64,000 nucleotides of DNA, taken from assembly GCF_009914755.1 (NCBI RefSeq), contig NC_060947.1; one strand, 5' to 3'. The notes beneath the pieces are model-generated. The model saw only the letters and a program-made list of their open reading frames with translations, was not told where the DNA came from and did not search any database. A program made the position numbers and the translations under genes. This stretch comes from the human T2T-CHM13v2.0 reference genome, Homo sapiens. Numbering within the stretch: position 1 is the first letter of the stretch; every line of letters begins with the position of its first letter. This document shows positions 4,246 to 53,406 of the stretch, one piece after another.

Positions 4246-6767
4246 ATCCAATTAATGATATGTTATTATAATATTTTGCCAAATGACTCACCAGTGATAT
4301 AAAAGATTTAAAAGCCGTTTCCAAAGTATTTCCCTGTAGAGCAGATTTGGAATGTGATGAAAGAGGGAACAGGACCAATGGGAAAATATTAAAGTGTTTG
4401 AAGCCAACTCATCAGGATGAAATAAATGAGATGGGCTATTTAATGATTATCTATAGCAGTTCCATATAAGGTTTTTATAAAGAAGCAGTGGAATAGCCTT
4501 CTAAAGACTAAGCTCTTCCCTTTCTCTTAGGAGGTAGGTACGAATTAGAAAATTAATCAAGAGAGAATGTGGCCTCTGATGACATGAGAGTTGTTTGAAG
4601 GTGGCAGGAGGCAGGAGGGTGGTTGCATTCAGTCAATAGTTGAGCAATTTACAAAAATAAATAGAATTGAGCAAATTCAGAACAGATTTAATCTCCATTT
4701 TATTTTCAAGCTAAACAAAAGATGCTGATATAAGGGGGAAATTACTCCAAAAATCCAGCTTTACTGACATATTTTGAGTCATTTGCATGAATAAAATGGT
4801 CCTAGAGACAAGTGCGAACTTGACTTTAAAGTGAATAGGCCTGGAAGTGTTTTCTGACGGAGAATTAGTTTGGTGCATTCATTCAATATTTATTGATATA
4901 ATATTTATATTCATGTTATTCCAAAAAAGAGTTGAAGCAGATTGCAAAGCTATGTATATAATCCACAATACAAAAACTAAGAGATGAAATCAGGAGGAAA
5001 TAATAAGAATAGGAGAAATAAGATAAGGTCAAGTTTGGGTAAAATAAATGTCTAAACTGTATGTCGTAGTTAGAGACAGGCCACACACATTTAGCTCTGA
5101 GATTTCTAGAAACAACTGAAAGAGTCCTGGAAACTGAGATAATAGACTTGTATTGTGTTAAGCCACTAAACTCTCTTTCAAACCATTCCTTAGTTCTCAA
5201 GGGAAGACATGAGGATGGGATAAACCTCCAGGGGAATTGGGGTACTAACTTTCATAAAGATTTTTACTTCTTGAAGAGGACTTAATTTCAAGTCTATGTA
5301 GAAGCAGAATAAATGGGTTATGTGATTGTTTAAGGTTGCTGAAAGATCTTTCCTTATATGTAGAAACCTGTATTGGCTTTTGAGCTACTTGAATGTAGCA
5401 AACTAAATATTCTGGAATAGGATCTGTCATCCTCTACATGGGACGCTCTTTTGTATGATACCCATCCACTCTTTTGCACTTTGAACATTTCAGGCCTTTA
5501 CTGAGTATGTAATTACTGACTGCTAAACAATTATGTCATTTGCTGAATTCCTTTATCACCAGACACATAATCATCAGTTCAAAAACAATTAGGCAAGATT
5601 CTCATTGATCTTCAGAATGTCCTTAAAGCTTTTCAACTTATAATTAACACATATACTTGTCTTCTTTCCTTTAGCACACGTGAAACAGAATAGTGTTCCT
5701 GCTGTAGGATTTTCATCATTTGCCAATCTTCACTGTAATCCTTGAAAATGTGAAGGTGGATGGATGCATTTTACTTTACAATTCAGTGTGATAAAACCCA
5801 CAGCTGCTGTTCAAAGTTCTATTTAATTTAGAAGGGAAAGGACTACTTTTATCGTGCAGGAGATTGATTGAATTATATAATTCTCTCAAATAAGGTAGAT
5901 AATAAAATTTTAAGATATATTTTACAATTTCACTATTATATACTACCTAGAAGGCTAGCTATTTTTATTCCTTCACAGCCTGAGGGGGTAGGAAGTTTTA
6001 TAAACTCCACGCCCGCCCCCCAAAGACTACAGGTTCTATCCTCAACAATAAAGGACCCTACAGTGTTATCAGTGAGAGAAATTATTCTGACTAAGCAGGT
6101 CTGTTATTTCACTAAAATATCGCTTATGCCTTCTAATCTCAACATTCCAGAAAATGTATTTAAAAAACAGGCAGGCTATCAGTAAAAAAGAAAACCAAAA
6201 ATAAATCTAAATATTTTGTTCAGTTAATGATCAGTGTGATTTATTTATTTTTATTGTATATATTTGTAGGGAATAATGTGATATTTTGATCTATGTGTAT
6301 ATTGTAGAAAGAGTCTATCAAGTTAACATATCCATTTTATGTTTTTGTGGTGAGAATGTTAACAATCTATTGTTTTAGTAACTTTAGAATATACATTATT
6401 ATTAACTGTGGTTATCATGCAGTGCAATAGATCAATAAAACTTATCTTTCCAGTCTAACAGAAACTTTGTACCCTTTGAGCAACATCTCCCTTTGTCTTA
6501 TCCCTTTTCCTCCCCTCTCCTTTACCCTCTGGTAACCACCTTTCTATTCTCTGTTTCTATGAGATTAGCTTTTTTAGATTTCACATATGAGTGAGGGCAT
6601 GCAGTATTTGTCTTTTTGTGTCTGGCTTATTTCACTTAGAATAATACCCTCCAGATTAATCTATGTTGTCACAAATGACAGAATATCCTCATTTTTTAAG
6701 GCTGTATAGTATTGCATTATGTATATGTGTGTATAAATGTTATATACATGTGTTTATATATATGTGT

Positions 6768-6826
6768 GTATATATATATAATATATATATATATATATAA
6801 TATATATATATATATATAATATATAT

Positions 6827-6861
<35 letters not shown>
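6768..6861. repeat. (TA)n microsatellite with 19-bp higher-order periodicity
   Basis: Pure TA run with AA interruptions at 6780, 6799, 6818 and 6837. Confidence 0.95.
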
Positions 6862-37989: not shown

Positions 37990-38650
37990 GAGTCAACTGG
38001 CATTATATTAGTTTAGGCCCTCATTATCTCTTACTTGGGCCATTGTAGCAGCCTAGTAACTACTCTCCCATGTTCAGTCTTTCTCTTCTTCTAACCTATT
38101 TAATTGCTACTTATAAATTTACCTTACCAAAACTCTCCTTCTTTCATCAGGAACCTGTAAAGGATCTCTATTGTTTACCATATCAAGACCAACCCCTCTG
38201 CAGTATTTTCAAGATCTTCAAATACTGACTCCTATCCACCTATTTAGTCTCTTTTTCACTGTGTCCCTAGTCTTCTGTTCTGCTTAACCTGATTTTCTCA
38301 TTGTTTTCTACAGAAGCTATGCTCATTCCTACATCCAAGATTTTGCTCTTGGTATTGCTCTGACATGTGATGTTTTTTCTCCTTTTCTCCATGTATCCAA
38401 ATTTTCACCAACCACCAACATTCAGCTCAAGTTCTGAATCCTCTGTGAAGTCCTCTCTGCTACTTCAGGTGATGCTCAACTCTCCTTCCTCTGGTTACCC
38501 TATTATAATTGTGGCATATATTTTAGTAACTAATTGCCTTCTAATTATTTTATATGTGTTGGTTTTACCTCTGTAACCAAACTGTAACTCCCCAGAAAGT
38601 ATAGCAGAATACTACCTAGTAAATACTAAATAAATAAATATTTTTATTGG
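37990..38650 (+). mobile_element. L2 fragment
   Basis: tagtttaggccctcattatctcttacttgggccattgtagcagcct and later L2-like pyrimidine-rich body; boundaries approximate. Confidence 0.5.
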
Positions 38651-39344
38651 TTTATTAGCCAAGTAGTATAGAGACTCTATGAATTTTAAATTACCTAATG
38701 TGACTAAATGGAATTAGGAATAGTGATTAGAATGCTTTGTGTCTTTTTAAAATTCATAAATATATATATAGGCTTTATTCAAACACTCAGAGTTTGAAAC
38801 CGGAAACCACTTCTCAAACCAGTCTGCCCCCTCTGAGGCTGAAAGGGTTCTCACATATATCCTCATGGAGCCATCATAAAGAAAAAGAGATATTCTTAAT
38901 TTTTTTTAATTAAAAAAAAAGAAAAGAAGAGATATTCTTAAACTCATTTTAGAGATGAGTAGAGGCTGAGAAGAGTATAATGAGGAAGAGATGATTTATT
39001 TCGTAAGAAAGAAAGGTGAGAAACAAAGACATTCCAGATGTATAGAGCCCTGGAAAAGAGACATCATATATCTTCAGTACATTCAGTGTTGTATAAATAG
39101 TACAATATGGCTGGAACCTCAAGTTGATTCAAGGCAAGTGAATGTAGGGAAATAAAAGATGTGGTTTGAAAAAAATCTCAGTGTGTCCGAAATTGAGCTC
39201 ATCACATTTGTCATCCCCTTCCCAAATATTTTTATCTTCCTTCTCAGTGATTGTTCCACCACCCACCCAGTTTTTTAAGTCAAAAATTCAGATGTCATCC
39301 TTGACTTTCTCTTTTTTCTTCTCTTCTCTATACAGCCAAATGCT

Positions 39345-39512: not shown

Positions 39513-39935
39513 CTGCTGGCAATGAGGAGTCATTGAGAGGCTTGAAGCAGGAAAATGACCTAGTAGAATATGCATTTTAGAAAGGTCATTCTGGTATTTG
39601 TATGGAAGATAGATGGTAAGGGAGCAAAATTAAAGGTAACAGAACTAGTTAGTAGAATACAAAAAATAAGATAATAAAAGACATAGAGGAAAAGATAAAT
39701 TTGTGAGGTATTAAAGAGCTAAAATTGATCAATTTATGTTACCATTCGGATGCACAGGGTAAAGAAGAGGGAGTGATAGGTGTCTGGTCTTGCACACTAA
39801 GTAAATATAATGATCAGGGTTTGGGGAACAATCATCAATGCCCCTTCCCTCCTTCCTTTTTTTAATAAAGTTGAGATGACTTTACGGTAATCAGGTATAA
39901 ATATTTTTTTAAACAGTTGTCTCCTTGAGTCTGGA

Positions 39936-40151
39936 CCTTGGGAGAGAGGTCAGGCTTATCGATAAGGATTTTGGAGTCAACAGTATACTAGCTGGTAATA
40001 GCTACTGTCTGAATGGATTAAATAACGTAAAAGACAAATCTTTTCCTCTATGTCTTTTATGTTATTTAATCCATTCAGACAGTAGCTATTACCAGCTAGT
40101 ATACTGTTGACTCCAAAATCCTTATCTACAGGCCTGACCTCTCTCCCAAGG
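39936..40151. repeat. Near-perfect inverted repeat: 101-bp arms, 14-nt spacer
   Basis: 39936-40036 is the reverse complement of 40051-40151 with 4 differences (39956, 39958, 39960, 40027). Confidence 0.97.
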
Positions 40152-40376
40152 AAGGAAGCATTTCAGGGTGAGAAGAGAACCAAGGATGAAGTCCTTGATA
40201 AGACCAATACTTAAGGGAGGTCTCCAGGGAATCCTGAGTAATGGTTAAAGAGTAAGGGAGAGAACCAGAAAATTGATATCATGCTGGTAGAGGAGGATAG
40301 AATTTCAATGAGACTAATAGTGTTGAATGCCGTAGATAGGTCAAGTAAGATAGCTAATTAGTTATATTAGTTAGTA

Positions 40377-40885
40377 CATAAGTTCCAAACCCCTGGGTCA
40401 TGTACCAGTATCAGAACCAGGCCACACAACAGGAGGTGAGTGACAGGTGAGTGAGCGAAGCTTCATCTGTATTTACAGCTGCTCCCCATCACTCATGTTA
40501 CTGCCTGAACTCTGCCTCCTGTCAGATCAGCAGCAGCATTAGATTTTCGTAGCAGCACAAACCCTATTGTGAACTGTACATGTGAGGGATCTAGGTTGCA
40601 TGCTCCTTATGAGAATCTAATGCCTGATGATCTGTCACTGTCTCCCATCACCCCCAGATGGGACCATCTACTTGCAGGAAAATAAGCTCAGGGATTCCAC
40701 TGATTCTACATTATGATGGGTTGTGTAATTATTTCATTACATATTATAATGTAATAATAATAGAAATAAACTACCTAATAAATGTAATACACTTGAGTCA
40801 TTCTGAAACCTGCCACCTCCCCAGTCCATAGAAAAACTGGCTTCCATGAAACCAGTTCCTTGTGCCAAAAAGGTTGGGGTCATTG
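40377..40885. mobile_element. MER1A (hAT-Charlie) DNA transposon
   Basis: gccacacaacaggaggtgagtg...gagggatctaggttgcatgctccttatgagaatctaatgcctgatgatctg...tgccaaaaaggttgggg; about 510 bp; degenerate 8-bp TSD agttagta/agttaggg. Confidence 0.85.
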
Positions 40886-42899
40886 AGTTAGGGGATCACT
40901 GTCTTTAGCAATTACAACTTCAAGGAAGTTTTGAGAACAGAAGGTGGCAGTACATTAAGGAGTAAATTGGAATAAATAAATGGAATTTTTAGCTATTACT
41001 AGTTTATGAAAGGAAGGAAAGAAAGAGGGAGTGACAGCTAGATTGAGACAAAACATCAATGGAATTTTCTTTTATTGACCAAGATAATTGTGTATGTTTA
41101 CAATCTGAAAGAAAAAGTGAATTGGGAAGAAAAATTTGAAGATACATAGAGAAACAGAGAACTTGATGGAATAAGATCTCAAAGAATAAGTGAGGGGATA
41201 AGATCCACAGCAGAGTAGGAGGTATTTGCTTTAAATATTGTATTTTTATTGTCTCTTAATGCATTGGCCTCTCCCAAGTAAATTGAGAACCCCTCAAATG
41301 AATAGACACAGTCTTTTTCAGTCCCTAGTTTAGGGCTCAAAAAATTTTTTGCTGAATGAATTAAGATCATTTCTTGATTTACTTTGATGCTTCTTCTCTC
41401 CCCCACTTACTCTTTTTTTTTCCCCAATTTTCCATCCTTAGCTCTCTTCTCTTGTCACTGTATTCAGTTGCTCCAGGAGATCTCAAAAATGCCTAAAGTT
41501 TCTTTTTCTGAGACAGGAGAGGTTGAGATGTGACTAGACCTTTTATACTCAGAGTAATGCTGAATCATTAATTATACCGTCCCTTCCTGTTTGCCTTCCC
41601 ATGGAGCCACACTAAGTAGAATTGGATTGGATTTGAGGGTTGTTTTCCAACATGCTGCAGACACTTGATATACAACCTTTTATTTTTTTATTTTTATTTT
41701 TGGCAGGCCCCTTCTTAACCCTACAACCTCAGAAACTTTCCATTTTTGTACCTGCTCAGTTCTTCCAGTAGAAAGTAACCCTTGATGCATAGCTTCTTGG
41801 ACTGGGAAGGTCATTAGAGTTTTTTGATGATGATTCCAAATGCAACAGAGTAGCTTGCCTGTTTCAATAGATTTTCCTTTGTTTTGACTTTGTTGACCTA
41901 TCATTTGCTGAATGATATAAGCAGCTTCACAATAAAAGAGGGTATATTATACACAGGTTGAAGCAGGGTAAGTATTTTTGTCCTGAGAGAAAAATCCGAT
42001 CTAAAGATATATTTGATTTTTTTTTGTGTGTGTGTATGTAATTAGGAATGACCATTTGAAGTAGAAGCAGAGATGTCTGAGAGCCCAATTTTCAAAGTAA
42101 TAATTTGCTATATTTATTTCAAAGTAAGGCTCTATGGCTAATTTTAGGAAAGGCCTTGGAAATGAACCAACATGCTTTAGGAAGATTCAGATGTTTAGTT
42201 TTAAACCTTTCCATACATGCTTTAAAACATTCTAATAGTTATCTGTGAAAGAAATGCATTTTAAATATAAGAAAAAAATGCTATTTCCTTTTCAGTGCCT
42301 TTCTACAGCAACTGAAAGTTAAATTAGAATGCCAGCTGTTATAAGGAGCATGTTAATCTTCCTCTAGGGCAAGACTGTTCTTCTGATCTTCTCCTGTTTT
42401 CTCTACAGTGCCCAACACAGTGCAGAGAAACCAGCGGAAACTTAGTCCATACTTGTTGACTTGACAGTTTACAGAAACATTTTGTCCTCTACAACCTCCT
42501 TCAGACTATCCCTGTCGACCCTATATTTAGAAAATGGGTTCTTGTCTAAGTCTGGAGACAAGGTTATATCTGTGGAACAGATGCTCATTATAGTTCACAT
42601 GCATATTGAACAAAAATTCAGAAAAGCAATGAGGTGAATTTTATAATCTTCAGAAATCCCCTTGAAAGGGCCACAAGAATAGGAAGCTGGTGCATATCAT
42701 CCTCATAATTTGTCTGCTCTCTAATTGGCACCACCAATGTTTTGGGTTCCAATTCATTGACCCATTTTTTTATTCCTCTGCTTTTTCAAAAAAATATATA
42801 AACTTTAAAAGACACTCTGTTACTATTTACTAATGCCACTTGACTGGTTACTTTTTGTACTTGTCCTTATAAGCAGTGTATAGGTCAAAATCAATGTAA

Positions 42900-52889: not shown

Positions 52890-53337
52890 ACAATTATTTA
52901 TTGGAGACACTACTATGTTCTAGGCATTGTCTTAGAAGCAGGTGATACAAAAGTGACAGATAGCATCTCTGCTCTCACAAAGATTATACTCTTTTGGGAG
53001 AGAGAAAGTGAAGAAGAAAACAAAACATACAAAAATTATCAGCTAGTGGTAAGTGCCACCCAGATGAACAACATATGTGATGTGGTAGAAATTGAGGAGA
53101 TGGAATGGACCAGGTAGTAAGGGAAAGCAGAGATCTGAATGCCATGAAGGAGCCAACCACATGAAGATGAGTGGGGAAAAAATTCCAGGCTCATATTATG
53201 TGAAGGCCCAAAGCAAAAATGAACTCAGCATGTTTAAGAAATTGAAAGATTAGTGAGACTGAAGCTTAGTGGGAGAAGTAGAGAATGGTAGGAAATGAGG
53301 TCAGAAAGGTAGGCAGGGACCAAATTGGCTTTGATTT

Positions 53338-53406
<69 letters not shown>

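What the first reader, a model, noticed from the sequence alone, without database searches (positions are those of the whole stretch)
39936..40151. Young 101-bp near-perfect palindrome inside an ancient L2: candidate de novo hairpin RNA or cruciform
Seen: arms 39936-40036 and 40051-40151 match at 97 of 101 positions, including a 66-bp perfect stretch (39961-40026), with a 14-nt loop. In a + strand RNA, two of the four differences are G-U wobbles. The host L2 is heavily diverged, so the duplication is far younger than the element or is being homogenised between arms. It is not a MITE: no TSD, and L2-like sequence resumes after 40151. Established: TE-derived inverted repeats can give rise to new miRNA/endo-siRNA hairpins, ADAR substrates and fragile cruciforms. 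Function here is inference only.
Basis: partly seen in the sequence, partly recalled or inferred. Interest (0 to 1): 0.7.

Follow-up and report, generated by a model that had tools for sequence, protein, structure and literature searches.

The report
Template-switch insertion forming intronic hairpin
A 101-base-pair inverted repeat in an intron of the human gene IL1RAPL2 is real and is likely the scar of one DNA-copying accident that pasted neighbouring sequence in backwards; it likely has no function and is a clear but ordinary example of a known mutation type.

Summary
In detail: arms 39936-40036 and 40051-40151 match at 97 of 101 positions around a 14-nt loop, with a 66-bp perfect core. Paralogues of the old host repeat show that the left arm is the resident copy and that about 120 nt (about 40027-40146) were inserted. 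The three clustered mismatches look like a change in the left arm that completes a 12-bp mini-palindrome. Best reading: a young three-switch templated insertion (MMBIR/FoSTeS type) with a 6-nt microhomology at the first junction. It is not a MITE, not two facing L2 insertions, and not an old palindrome kept alike by conversion. The hairpin would fold in IL1RAPL2 pre-mRNA (z = -24) and may be edited by ADAR. But the stem is about three times the 35 bp preferred for microRNAs, Rfam has no match, and only 0.9% of suitably sized template-switch hairpins are listed in miRBase. The 14-nt spacer argues against a strong cruciform. Age, polymorphism and expression could not be tested. New member of a known kind; low interest.

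The parts
39936..40036 (.). Left arm. 39936-40026 is the resident copy of the old repeat; 40027-40036 belongs to the insertion (inferred fold-back copy of the donor-derived piece).
40037..40050 (.). 14-nt loop; 13 of its 14 bases (40038-40050) are part of the inverted copy of the upstream donor
40051..40151 (.). Right arm. 40051-40060 comes from the donor, 40061 to about 40146 is the inserted inverted copy of the left arm, and the last 6 nt are the inferred pre-existing microhomology.
40027..40146 (.). Inferred insertion of 119-120 nt (edges uncertain by about 4 nt)
   Evidence: in-silico removal fuses two profile hits into one colinear hit; five best of 750 removals are 119-120 nt
40038..40060 (-). 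Exact 23-nt inverted copy of 39674-39696
   Evidence: chance expectation 3-5e-7 in the window
39674..39696 (+). Donor site of the centre of the palindrome; preceded by a 6-nt match to the end of the resident arm
39955..39966 (.). 12-bp perfect mini-palindrome in the left arm only; overlaps the three clustered mismatches (39956, 39958, 39960)
39936..39941 (+). 6-nt microhomology with 40146-40151 (inverted), inferred first switch point
39527..40217 (-). Old dispersed repeat hosting the event (L2 LINE by recall); profile matches at 40156-40217, 39867-39989 and 39527-39627 in colinear order; about 69% identical to the family majority

Best explanation
The palindrome contains an insertion of about 120 bases made of copies of two nearby stretches, likely laid down in one recent DNA-repair or replication accident with three template switches, and it likely has no function. 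Read on the minus strand, the inferred order is as follows. (1) A 3' end stalled or broken at about 40146 annealed by a 6-nt microhomology at 39936-39941 on the opposite strand and copied about 85 nt up to the old junction at 40026; running off a broken end would explain why the copy stops there. (2) It jumped to 39674, next to a 6-nt microhomology, and copied 23 nt. (3) It folded back on itself, leaving a 14-nt loop, copied back through its own product, and rejoined the resident arm with no detectable loss. A further 5-nt short-range switch, in the same event or later, likely made the three clustered mismatches in the left arm. Shown: the sequence relations, the insertion size, which arm is resident. 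Inferred: strand, order, one event, break versus fork, neutrality. The hairpin would form in IL1RAPL2 pre-mRNA and may be A-to-I edited as a bystander.
For: Exact 23-nt third-site donor (expectation 3-5e-7 in the window; 1 of 1979 random probes had an inverted match of 23 nt or more within 1 kb). Removing 119-120 nt fuses two profile hits into one (46-47 bits against 31.7 intact); removing left arm plus loop leaves no hit. 6-nt exact microhomology at junction 1, 6 nt then a mismatch at junction 2. The left arm's inner 9 nt equal the donor's start, which fold-back predicts. The right arm holds the family base at two of three clustered sites (T 21 vs G 2 of 29; C 20 vs T 6 of 29; third tied 13/13); clustering P = 0.013. 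No TSD, no second locus. The class is common: 33 of 103 and 26 of 99 germline templated-insertion calls in two people were multi-template (PMC8421209); 53,666 template switches in genic regions of the human lineage (PMC10710096).
Against: No primate or population sequence was available, so the pre-insertion allele is inferred from paralogues about 30% diverged, and the profile was built from motif-selected copies. Junctions 2 and 3 are imperfect: each needs a 3-4-nt slip relative to the donor, and the base at 40027 fits neither template. The proposed fold-back primer and the mini-palindrome are thermodynamically weak (-0.6 and -0.5 kcal/mol). A plus-strand version with four switches also fits. 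Neutrality rests on base rates and geometry; no expression, editing or conservation data were seen.
Confidence: 0.8

Rival explanations
1. Same origin, but the hairpin is functional: a de novo microRNA or endo-siRNA source in the IL1RAPL2 intron, possibly targeting other copies of the host repeat in 3' UTRs.
For: Very stable hairpin in the sense strand of an intron (hub annotation); 81 of 99 intragenic template-switch miRNA loci are sense-intronic (PMC10710096); L2-derived miRNAs exist in human brain (PMC6433296, search listing only).
Against: 101-bp stem, 76 bp unbroken from the apex, against a preferred 35 bp; no basal junction at 33-37 bp (PMC10710096). No Rfam match at gathering score in the window; the weak matches are far below cut-off (41.5 vs 100 bits, 28.9 vs 56). 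No miRNA in the RefSeq table. Base rate 57 of 6,054. siRNA production from long dsRNA is the bottleneck in mouse cells (PMC6391682 abstract).
Confidence: 0.04
2. An old palindrome kept near-perfect by arm-to-arm gene conversion or hairpin repair.
For: Inverted arms can convert (general knowledge); an old conserved orthologue could not be excluded directly.
Against: 23 of 23 identity to a donor outside the arms: P = 2.7e-4 at 30% divergence and 0.006 at 20%; loop alone 13 of 13, P = 0.01 and 0.055. The stretch was picked as the maximal exact match, so these values are somewhat flattering.
Confidence: 0.06
3. Stepwise origin: a short palindrome or the loop piece came first and the long arm was added in a later, separate switch.
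For: Repeated template switches at one locus are documented (hsa-mir-4713, PMC10710096); the left-arm cluster may itself be a later event.
Against: All pieces are near-identical to their templates, so the steps would have to be close in time; one event explains the 9-nt inner match without coincidence.
Confidence: 0.07
4. Active fragile site: the repeat extrudes as a cruciform and breaks the IL1RAPL2 intron at a meaningful rate (compatible with the best explanation for origin).
For: Arm/spacer ratio 7.2 with 4% mismatch meets, as I read it, the Lirex 'recombinogenic' rule (PMC5414712); DNA hairpin -109 kcal/mol.
Against: The ratio is below the 16 called strong. In yeast, Alu-arm repeats lose about 80% of breaks once the spacer reaches 9 nt and Mre11 attack needs loops under 9 nt (PMC8053094); these arms are about a third of an Alu's length.
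Confidence: 0.05
5. Assembly or sequencing artefact (fold-back read), a MITE, or two independent facing L2 insertions.
For: Fold-back chimeras do make palindromes; facing L2 copies made miR-28/151 (recalled).
Against: The arms differ at four sites, with the family base in one arm at two of them, which a read chimera would not give. No TSD and no second locus. The arms are 96% alike while each is only 71-78% like the family.
Confidence: 0.02

Closest known systems
Complex germline MMBIR-type templated insertions (MMB-TI, 'complex' class; Osia et al. 2021, PMC8421209)
   Same: Insertion built from several nearby templates, partly inverted, with short microhomology or microhomeology at the junctions and return to the original site.
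   Different: One template is 340 nt away (their search covers 100 bp); their events are differences from the reference in two people, whereas this one is in the reference and its frequency is unknown.
Short-range template-switch mutations and the hairpins they create (Walker et al. 2021, PMC7954356; Monttinen et al. 2023, PMC10710096)
   Same: One-step creation of a near-perfect inverted repeat in a sense intron; the 5-nt cluster fits the quasi-palindrome-to-palindrome type.
   Different: Needs three switches, not the two of the four-point model (they note such cases escape their algorithm). The copied piece (about 85 nt) is in the upper tail (median 12, maximum 128), and the stem is far longer than a pri-miRNA.
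Fold-back inverted duplications at double-strand breaks (Yu et al. 2024, PMC11724301, abstract)
   Same: Microhomology-primed fold-back next to a break; two pieces from one locus in inverted orientation.
   Different: The yeast events are mostly 5-34 bp; the enzymes here are unknown.
Human long inverted repeats, 'recombinogenic' class (Wang and Huang 2017, PMC5414712)
   Same: Arms over 30 bp, identity over 85%, short spacer, intronic.
   Different: A descriptive class with no mechanism. Whether this locus is in the 2006/2009 catalogues could not be checked (2009 paper not held; 2006 not requested).
L2-derived microRNAs such as miR-28 and miR-151 (origin recalled; PMC6433296 seen as listing only)
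   Same: Hairpin made of antisense and sense repeat sequence in an intron.
   Different: Those come from two old facing insertions and are conserved and processed; here one copy was duplicated recently and there is no sign of processing.

Membership tests
Complex templated insertion (MMB-TI / multi-switch TSM) | Inserted sequence matches nearby template(s), at least one inverted | tested here: met
   40061-40126 and 40132-40151 match the left arm, 40038-40060 matches 39674-39696
Complex templated insertion (MMB-TI / multi-switch TSM) | It is an insertion relative to an ancestral allele | tested here: met
   indirect: removing 119-120 nt restores colinearity with the repeat family; no orthologue seen
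Complex templated insertion (MMB-TI / multi-switch TSM) | Microhomology or microhomeology at junctions | tested here: inconclusive
   6 nt exact at junction 1; 6 nt then a mismatch and a 3-nt slip at junction 2; 3-4 nt only after a 4-nt slip at junction 3
Complex templated insertion (MMB-TI / multi-switch TSM) | Arises in one step on one branch of the primate tree | not testable with these tools
   the genome has no relatives in the collection
MicroRNA gene (canonical) | About 35-bp stem with single-stranded basal flanks | tested here: not met
   101-bp stem; pairing continues past 33, 35 and 37 bp
MicroRNA gene (canonical) | Unstructured apical loop of 10 nt or more | tested here: met
   14-nt loop
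MicroRNA gene (canonical) | Match to a curated family or annotation | tested here: not met
   0 Rfam matches at gathering score; none in the RefSeq table supplied; miRBase and MirGeneDB themselves not available
MicroRNA gene (canonical) | Precise 5p/3p reads, Drosha/Dicer dependence, AGO loading | not testable with these tools
   no RNA data
MITE | Target-site duplication | tested here: not met
   no flush duplication of 2-12 nt at the palindrome or insertion edges
MITE | Dispersed copies sharing the terminal repeats | tested here: not met
   only this locus found; the search scores few candidates
Host element = L2 LINE | Old, dispersed, high-copy repeat | tested here: met
   motif 60 matches vs 16 control, 11 vs 0; 54 of 78 columns identical to the family majority
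Host element = L2 LINE | Reverse-transcriptase remnant | tested here: inconclusive
   family majority reads YADD, but no Pfam RT match in 9 window frames or 18 paralogue frames and no PDB match for the alignment
Host element = L2 LINE | Match to a Dfam/Repbase L2 consensus | not testable with these tools
   no repeat library; the name is recalled
Cruciform-prone fragile palindrome (PATRR-like) | Spacer under about 9 nt | tested here: not met
   14 nt against the yeast threshold in PMC8053094
Cruciform-prone fragile palindrome (PATRR-like) | Very AT-rich arms | tested here: not met
   arm G+C 40%

The most novel reading that the evidence does not exclude
A single three-switch repair event, perhaps ape- or human-specific or still polymorphic, gave the brain-expressed gene IL1RAPL2 an instant 100-bp intronic duplex. 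The duplex is edited or diced into small RNAs complementary to other copies of the host repeat, making it a datable, fully reconstructable birth of a regulatory long-hairpin RNA in humans.
Probability: 0.04. Interest if true: 0.65.

Novelty: new member of a known kind. Interest (0 to 1): 0.2.

Why it matters
As it stands it is a clean, readable example of how a multi-step template switch builds a long hairpin in one go. It is useful for models of germline MMBIR and for methods that miss events with more than two switches. It answers no open question by itself. It would matter more if it proved human-specific or polymorphic and processed in brain, because the ancestral allele can be rebuilt exactly and tested side by side.

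Tried and rejected
A plain 14-nt motif search for paralogues was not enriched (125 matches vs 118 control); of its 30 loci only two looked like family members by eye, and the set was not used for counts. Pfam and PDB searches for an RT remnant gave nothing (the HybE and Tom22 hits are chance). Rfam mir-4782 and mir-379 matches were rejected as structure-only. MITE, facing L2 pair and read chimera were rejected. Whether the donor's two short extra stretches are ancestral could not be decided, because the profile did not reach the donor. A wider genomic sample for the background rate was not obtained, so rarity rests on 257 kb. Literature searches for IL1RAPL2 with 'palindrome', 'novel miRNA' and 'inverted repeat' listed 1, 4 and 1 papers, none on this locus by title and abstract start. 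Supplement searches found no row for the locus in PMC10710096 (one file too large to read, and no chrX string in the rest), PMC8421209 (no chrX string at all, so a weak test), PMC7954356 or PMC9380744 (one file not searched). The GRCh38/hg19 positions used for these were my approximate recall. Supplements of PMC6433296 and the 2009 catalogue of human long inverted repeats could not be read, so the locus may be catalogued there.

Full report
Observation. The arms at 39936-40036 and 40051-40151 match at 97 of 101 positions, with a 66-bp perfect run and a 14-nt loop. The differences are 39956/40131, 39958/40129, 39960/40127 and 40027/40060; the first and last are G-U pairs in a + strand RNA. Both strands fold about 24 standard deviations below shuffles. 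In 257,422 bases (window plus 64 loci from elsewhere in the genome) no other inverted repeat with arms of 22 bp or more and a spacer up to 60 was found, except AT-rich simple repeats. The arm sequence matched only this locus in the genome. By the hub's annotation it lies in an intron of IL1RAPL2, on the sense strand.

The missed clue. Positions 40038-40060, which cover 13 of the 14 loop bases and 10 bases of the right arm, are an exact inverted copy of 39674-39696. The chance expectation is 3-5e-7 for the whole window. Empirically, 11 of 1979 random 37-nt probes had a match of 23 nt or more within 1 kb. Only 1 of 1979 was inverted, and it looks like an Alu (name recalled); the direct ones are microsatellites, local tandem repeats and A-tails. 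The centre of the palindrome was therefore copied from a third site.

Which part is new. Gapped motifs taken from the window pulled out a dispersed family: 11 matches vs 0 control, 60 vs 16 with one mismatch (30 of the 60 fetched), and 8 vs 5. A profile from these paralogues (35 examined) maps to the minus strand in colinear order at 40156-40217, 39912-39988 and 39527-39627. In the intact sequence the first two are separate hits (31.7 and -4.9 bits). Removing 40027-40145 in silico fuses them into one (43.5 bits), and removing the left arm plus loop leaves no hit. Of 750 candidate removals the five best are 119-120 nt, starting at 40023-40027 (46.1-47.4 bits). So the left arm is resident, and right arm plus loop is an insertion of about 120 nt with no detectable loss. 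The copies were chosen by window-derived motifs and also built the profile, so its scores are not independent E-values. The right flank that drives the fusion was not part of any motif. The host is about 69% identical to the family majority (54 of 78 columns). I recall it as L2, and the majority reads YADD, but Pfam and PDB did not confirm an RT.

The mismatches. Three of four lie within 5 nt (P = 0.013). In 29 of 35 paralogues (6 dropped for lacking a profile hit across the seed; ungapped offsets) the right arm has the family base at two sites (T 21 vs G 2; C 20 vs T 6), and the third is tied (13 vs 13). The left-arm state completes a perfect 12-bp palindrome at 39955-39966, the pattern of a short template switch. 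Its hairpin is weak (-0.5 kcal/mol), so an ordinary multi-nucleotide mutation is not excluded. The arms then differ by about two events.

Age. At an assumed 1e-9 substitutions per site per year per copy, one point change in 91 nt gives about 5 Myr (95% interval 0.1-31), and all four in 101 give about 20 Myr (5-51). Conversion between arms cannot keep them identical to an outside donor: 23 of 23 has P = 2.7e-4 at 30% divergence and 0.006 at 20% (the stretch is the maximal match, so this is somewhat generous). A primate-era origin is likely. Orthologues were not available.

Mechanism (inferred). On the minus strand the product reads: right flank, forward copy of 39936-40026, forward copy of the donor, then the reverse complement of the donor's first 9 nt and of the arm. 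A 3' end at about 40146 can anneal at 39936-39941 by an exact 6-nt microhomology and copy to the old junction; run-off at a broken end would explain the exact stop. A second switch lands beside a 6-nt match just upstream of the donor, followed by a mismatch and a 3-nt slip. A fold-back then copies the new strand and rejoins the resident arm; it would be primed by 3-4 nt that follow the copied stretch in the donor after a 4-nt gap. This needs three switches and explains why the left arm's inner 9 nt equal the donor's start. Against it: junctions 2 and 3 are imperfect, base 40027 fits neither template, the primer hairpin is weak (-0.6 kcal/mol), and a four-switch plus-strand path also fits. There is no target-site duplication.

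Function. The hairpin would form in the pre-mRNA (-175.7 kcal/mol for the 216 nt, 60 adenosines in the arms), so bystander A-to-I editing is plausible from general knowledge of ADAR, but untested. As a microRNA it fails the geometry: 101 bp, 76 unbroken from the apex, against a preferred 35 bp (PMC10710096). Rfam gives 0 matches at gathering score in the window. Of 6,054 suitably sized template-switch hairpins in genes, 57 (0.9%) are in miRBase. siRNA production from long dsRNA is limiting in mouse cells (PMC6391682). As a cruciform, a spacer of 9 nt already cut breaks by about 80% for Alu-arm repeats in yeast (PMC8053094). The repeat does meet the looser Lirex rule as I read it (ratio 7.2) but not the strong one (16).

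Known kinds. The closest is the complex germline templated insertion: 33 of 103 and 26 of 99 calls in two people (PMC8421209). Single template switches in apes copy a median of 12 nt and at most 128 (PMC7954356), so this one is long but within range. Three text searches and four supplement searches found no mention of the locus (23, 37, 54, 59, 68). These tests are weak: the coordinates were recalled, some files were unreadable, and the 2009 catalogue was not held.

What I saw of each paper. PMC10710096: parts 1-3 of 6, passages, three supplements searched. PMC8421209: passages, part 1 of 2 of section 10, supplement searched. PMC7954356: passages, supplements searched. PMC8053094 and PMC7999016: passages. 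PMC5414712: whole text. PMC6391682 and PMC11724301: abstract and outline. PMC9380744: listing and supplement search. PMC6433296: listing only.

Verdict. Real, young, and mechanistically legible; most likely a neutral repair scar. New member of a known kind, interest 0.2.

Noticed in passing
window 38886-38941: A 20-bp perfect T8-AATT-A8 palindrome (38900-38919) sits between two exact 14-nt direct repeats (38886 and 38928); possibly another small duplication or template-switch scar.
   Followed up: partly
window 6755-6828: Interrupted (AT)n tract that pairs on itself over up to 53 bp with no spacer; a better cruciform candidate than the finding itself.
   Followed up: no
window 39188-39327 and 38009-38087: Further pieces of the same old repeat family on the + strand, opposite to the minus-strand fragments around the palindrome.
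   Followed up: no
window 40373-40890: A different element interrupts the host repeat right of the palindrome; it looks like a MER1-type DNA transposon (recalled, not tested) and has 16-nt inverted arms at 40536-40551 / 40608-40623.
   Followed up: no
window 52716 and 52753; 16351 and 16390: Short local tandem duplications (24-nt exact repeats 37 and 39 nt apart).
   Followed up: no
window 53326-53385: (GATA)n microsatellite.
   Followed up: no
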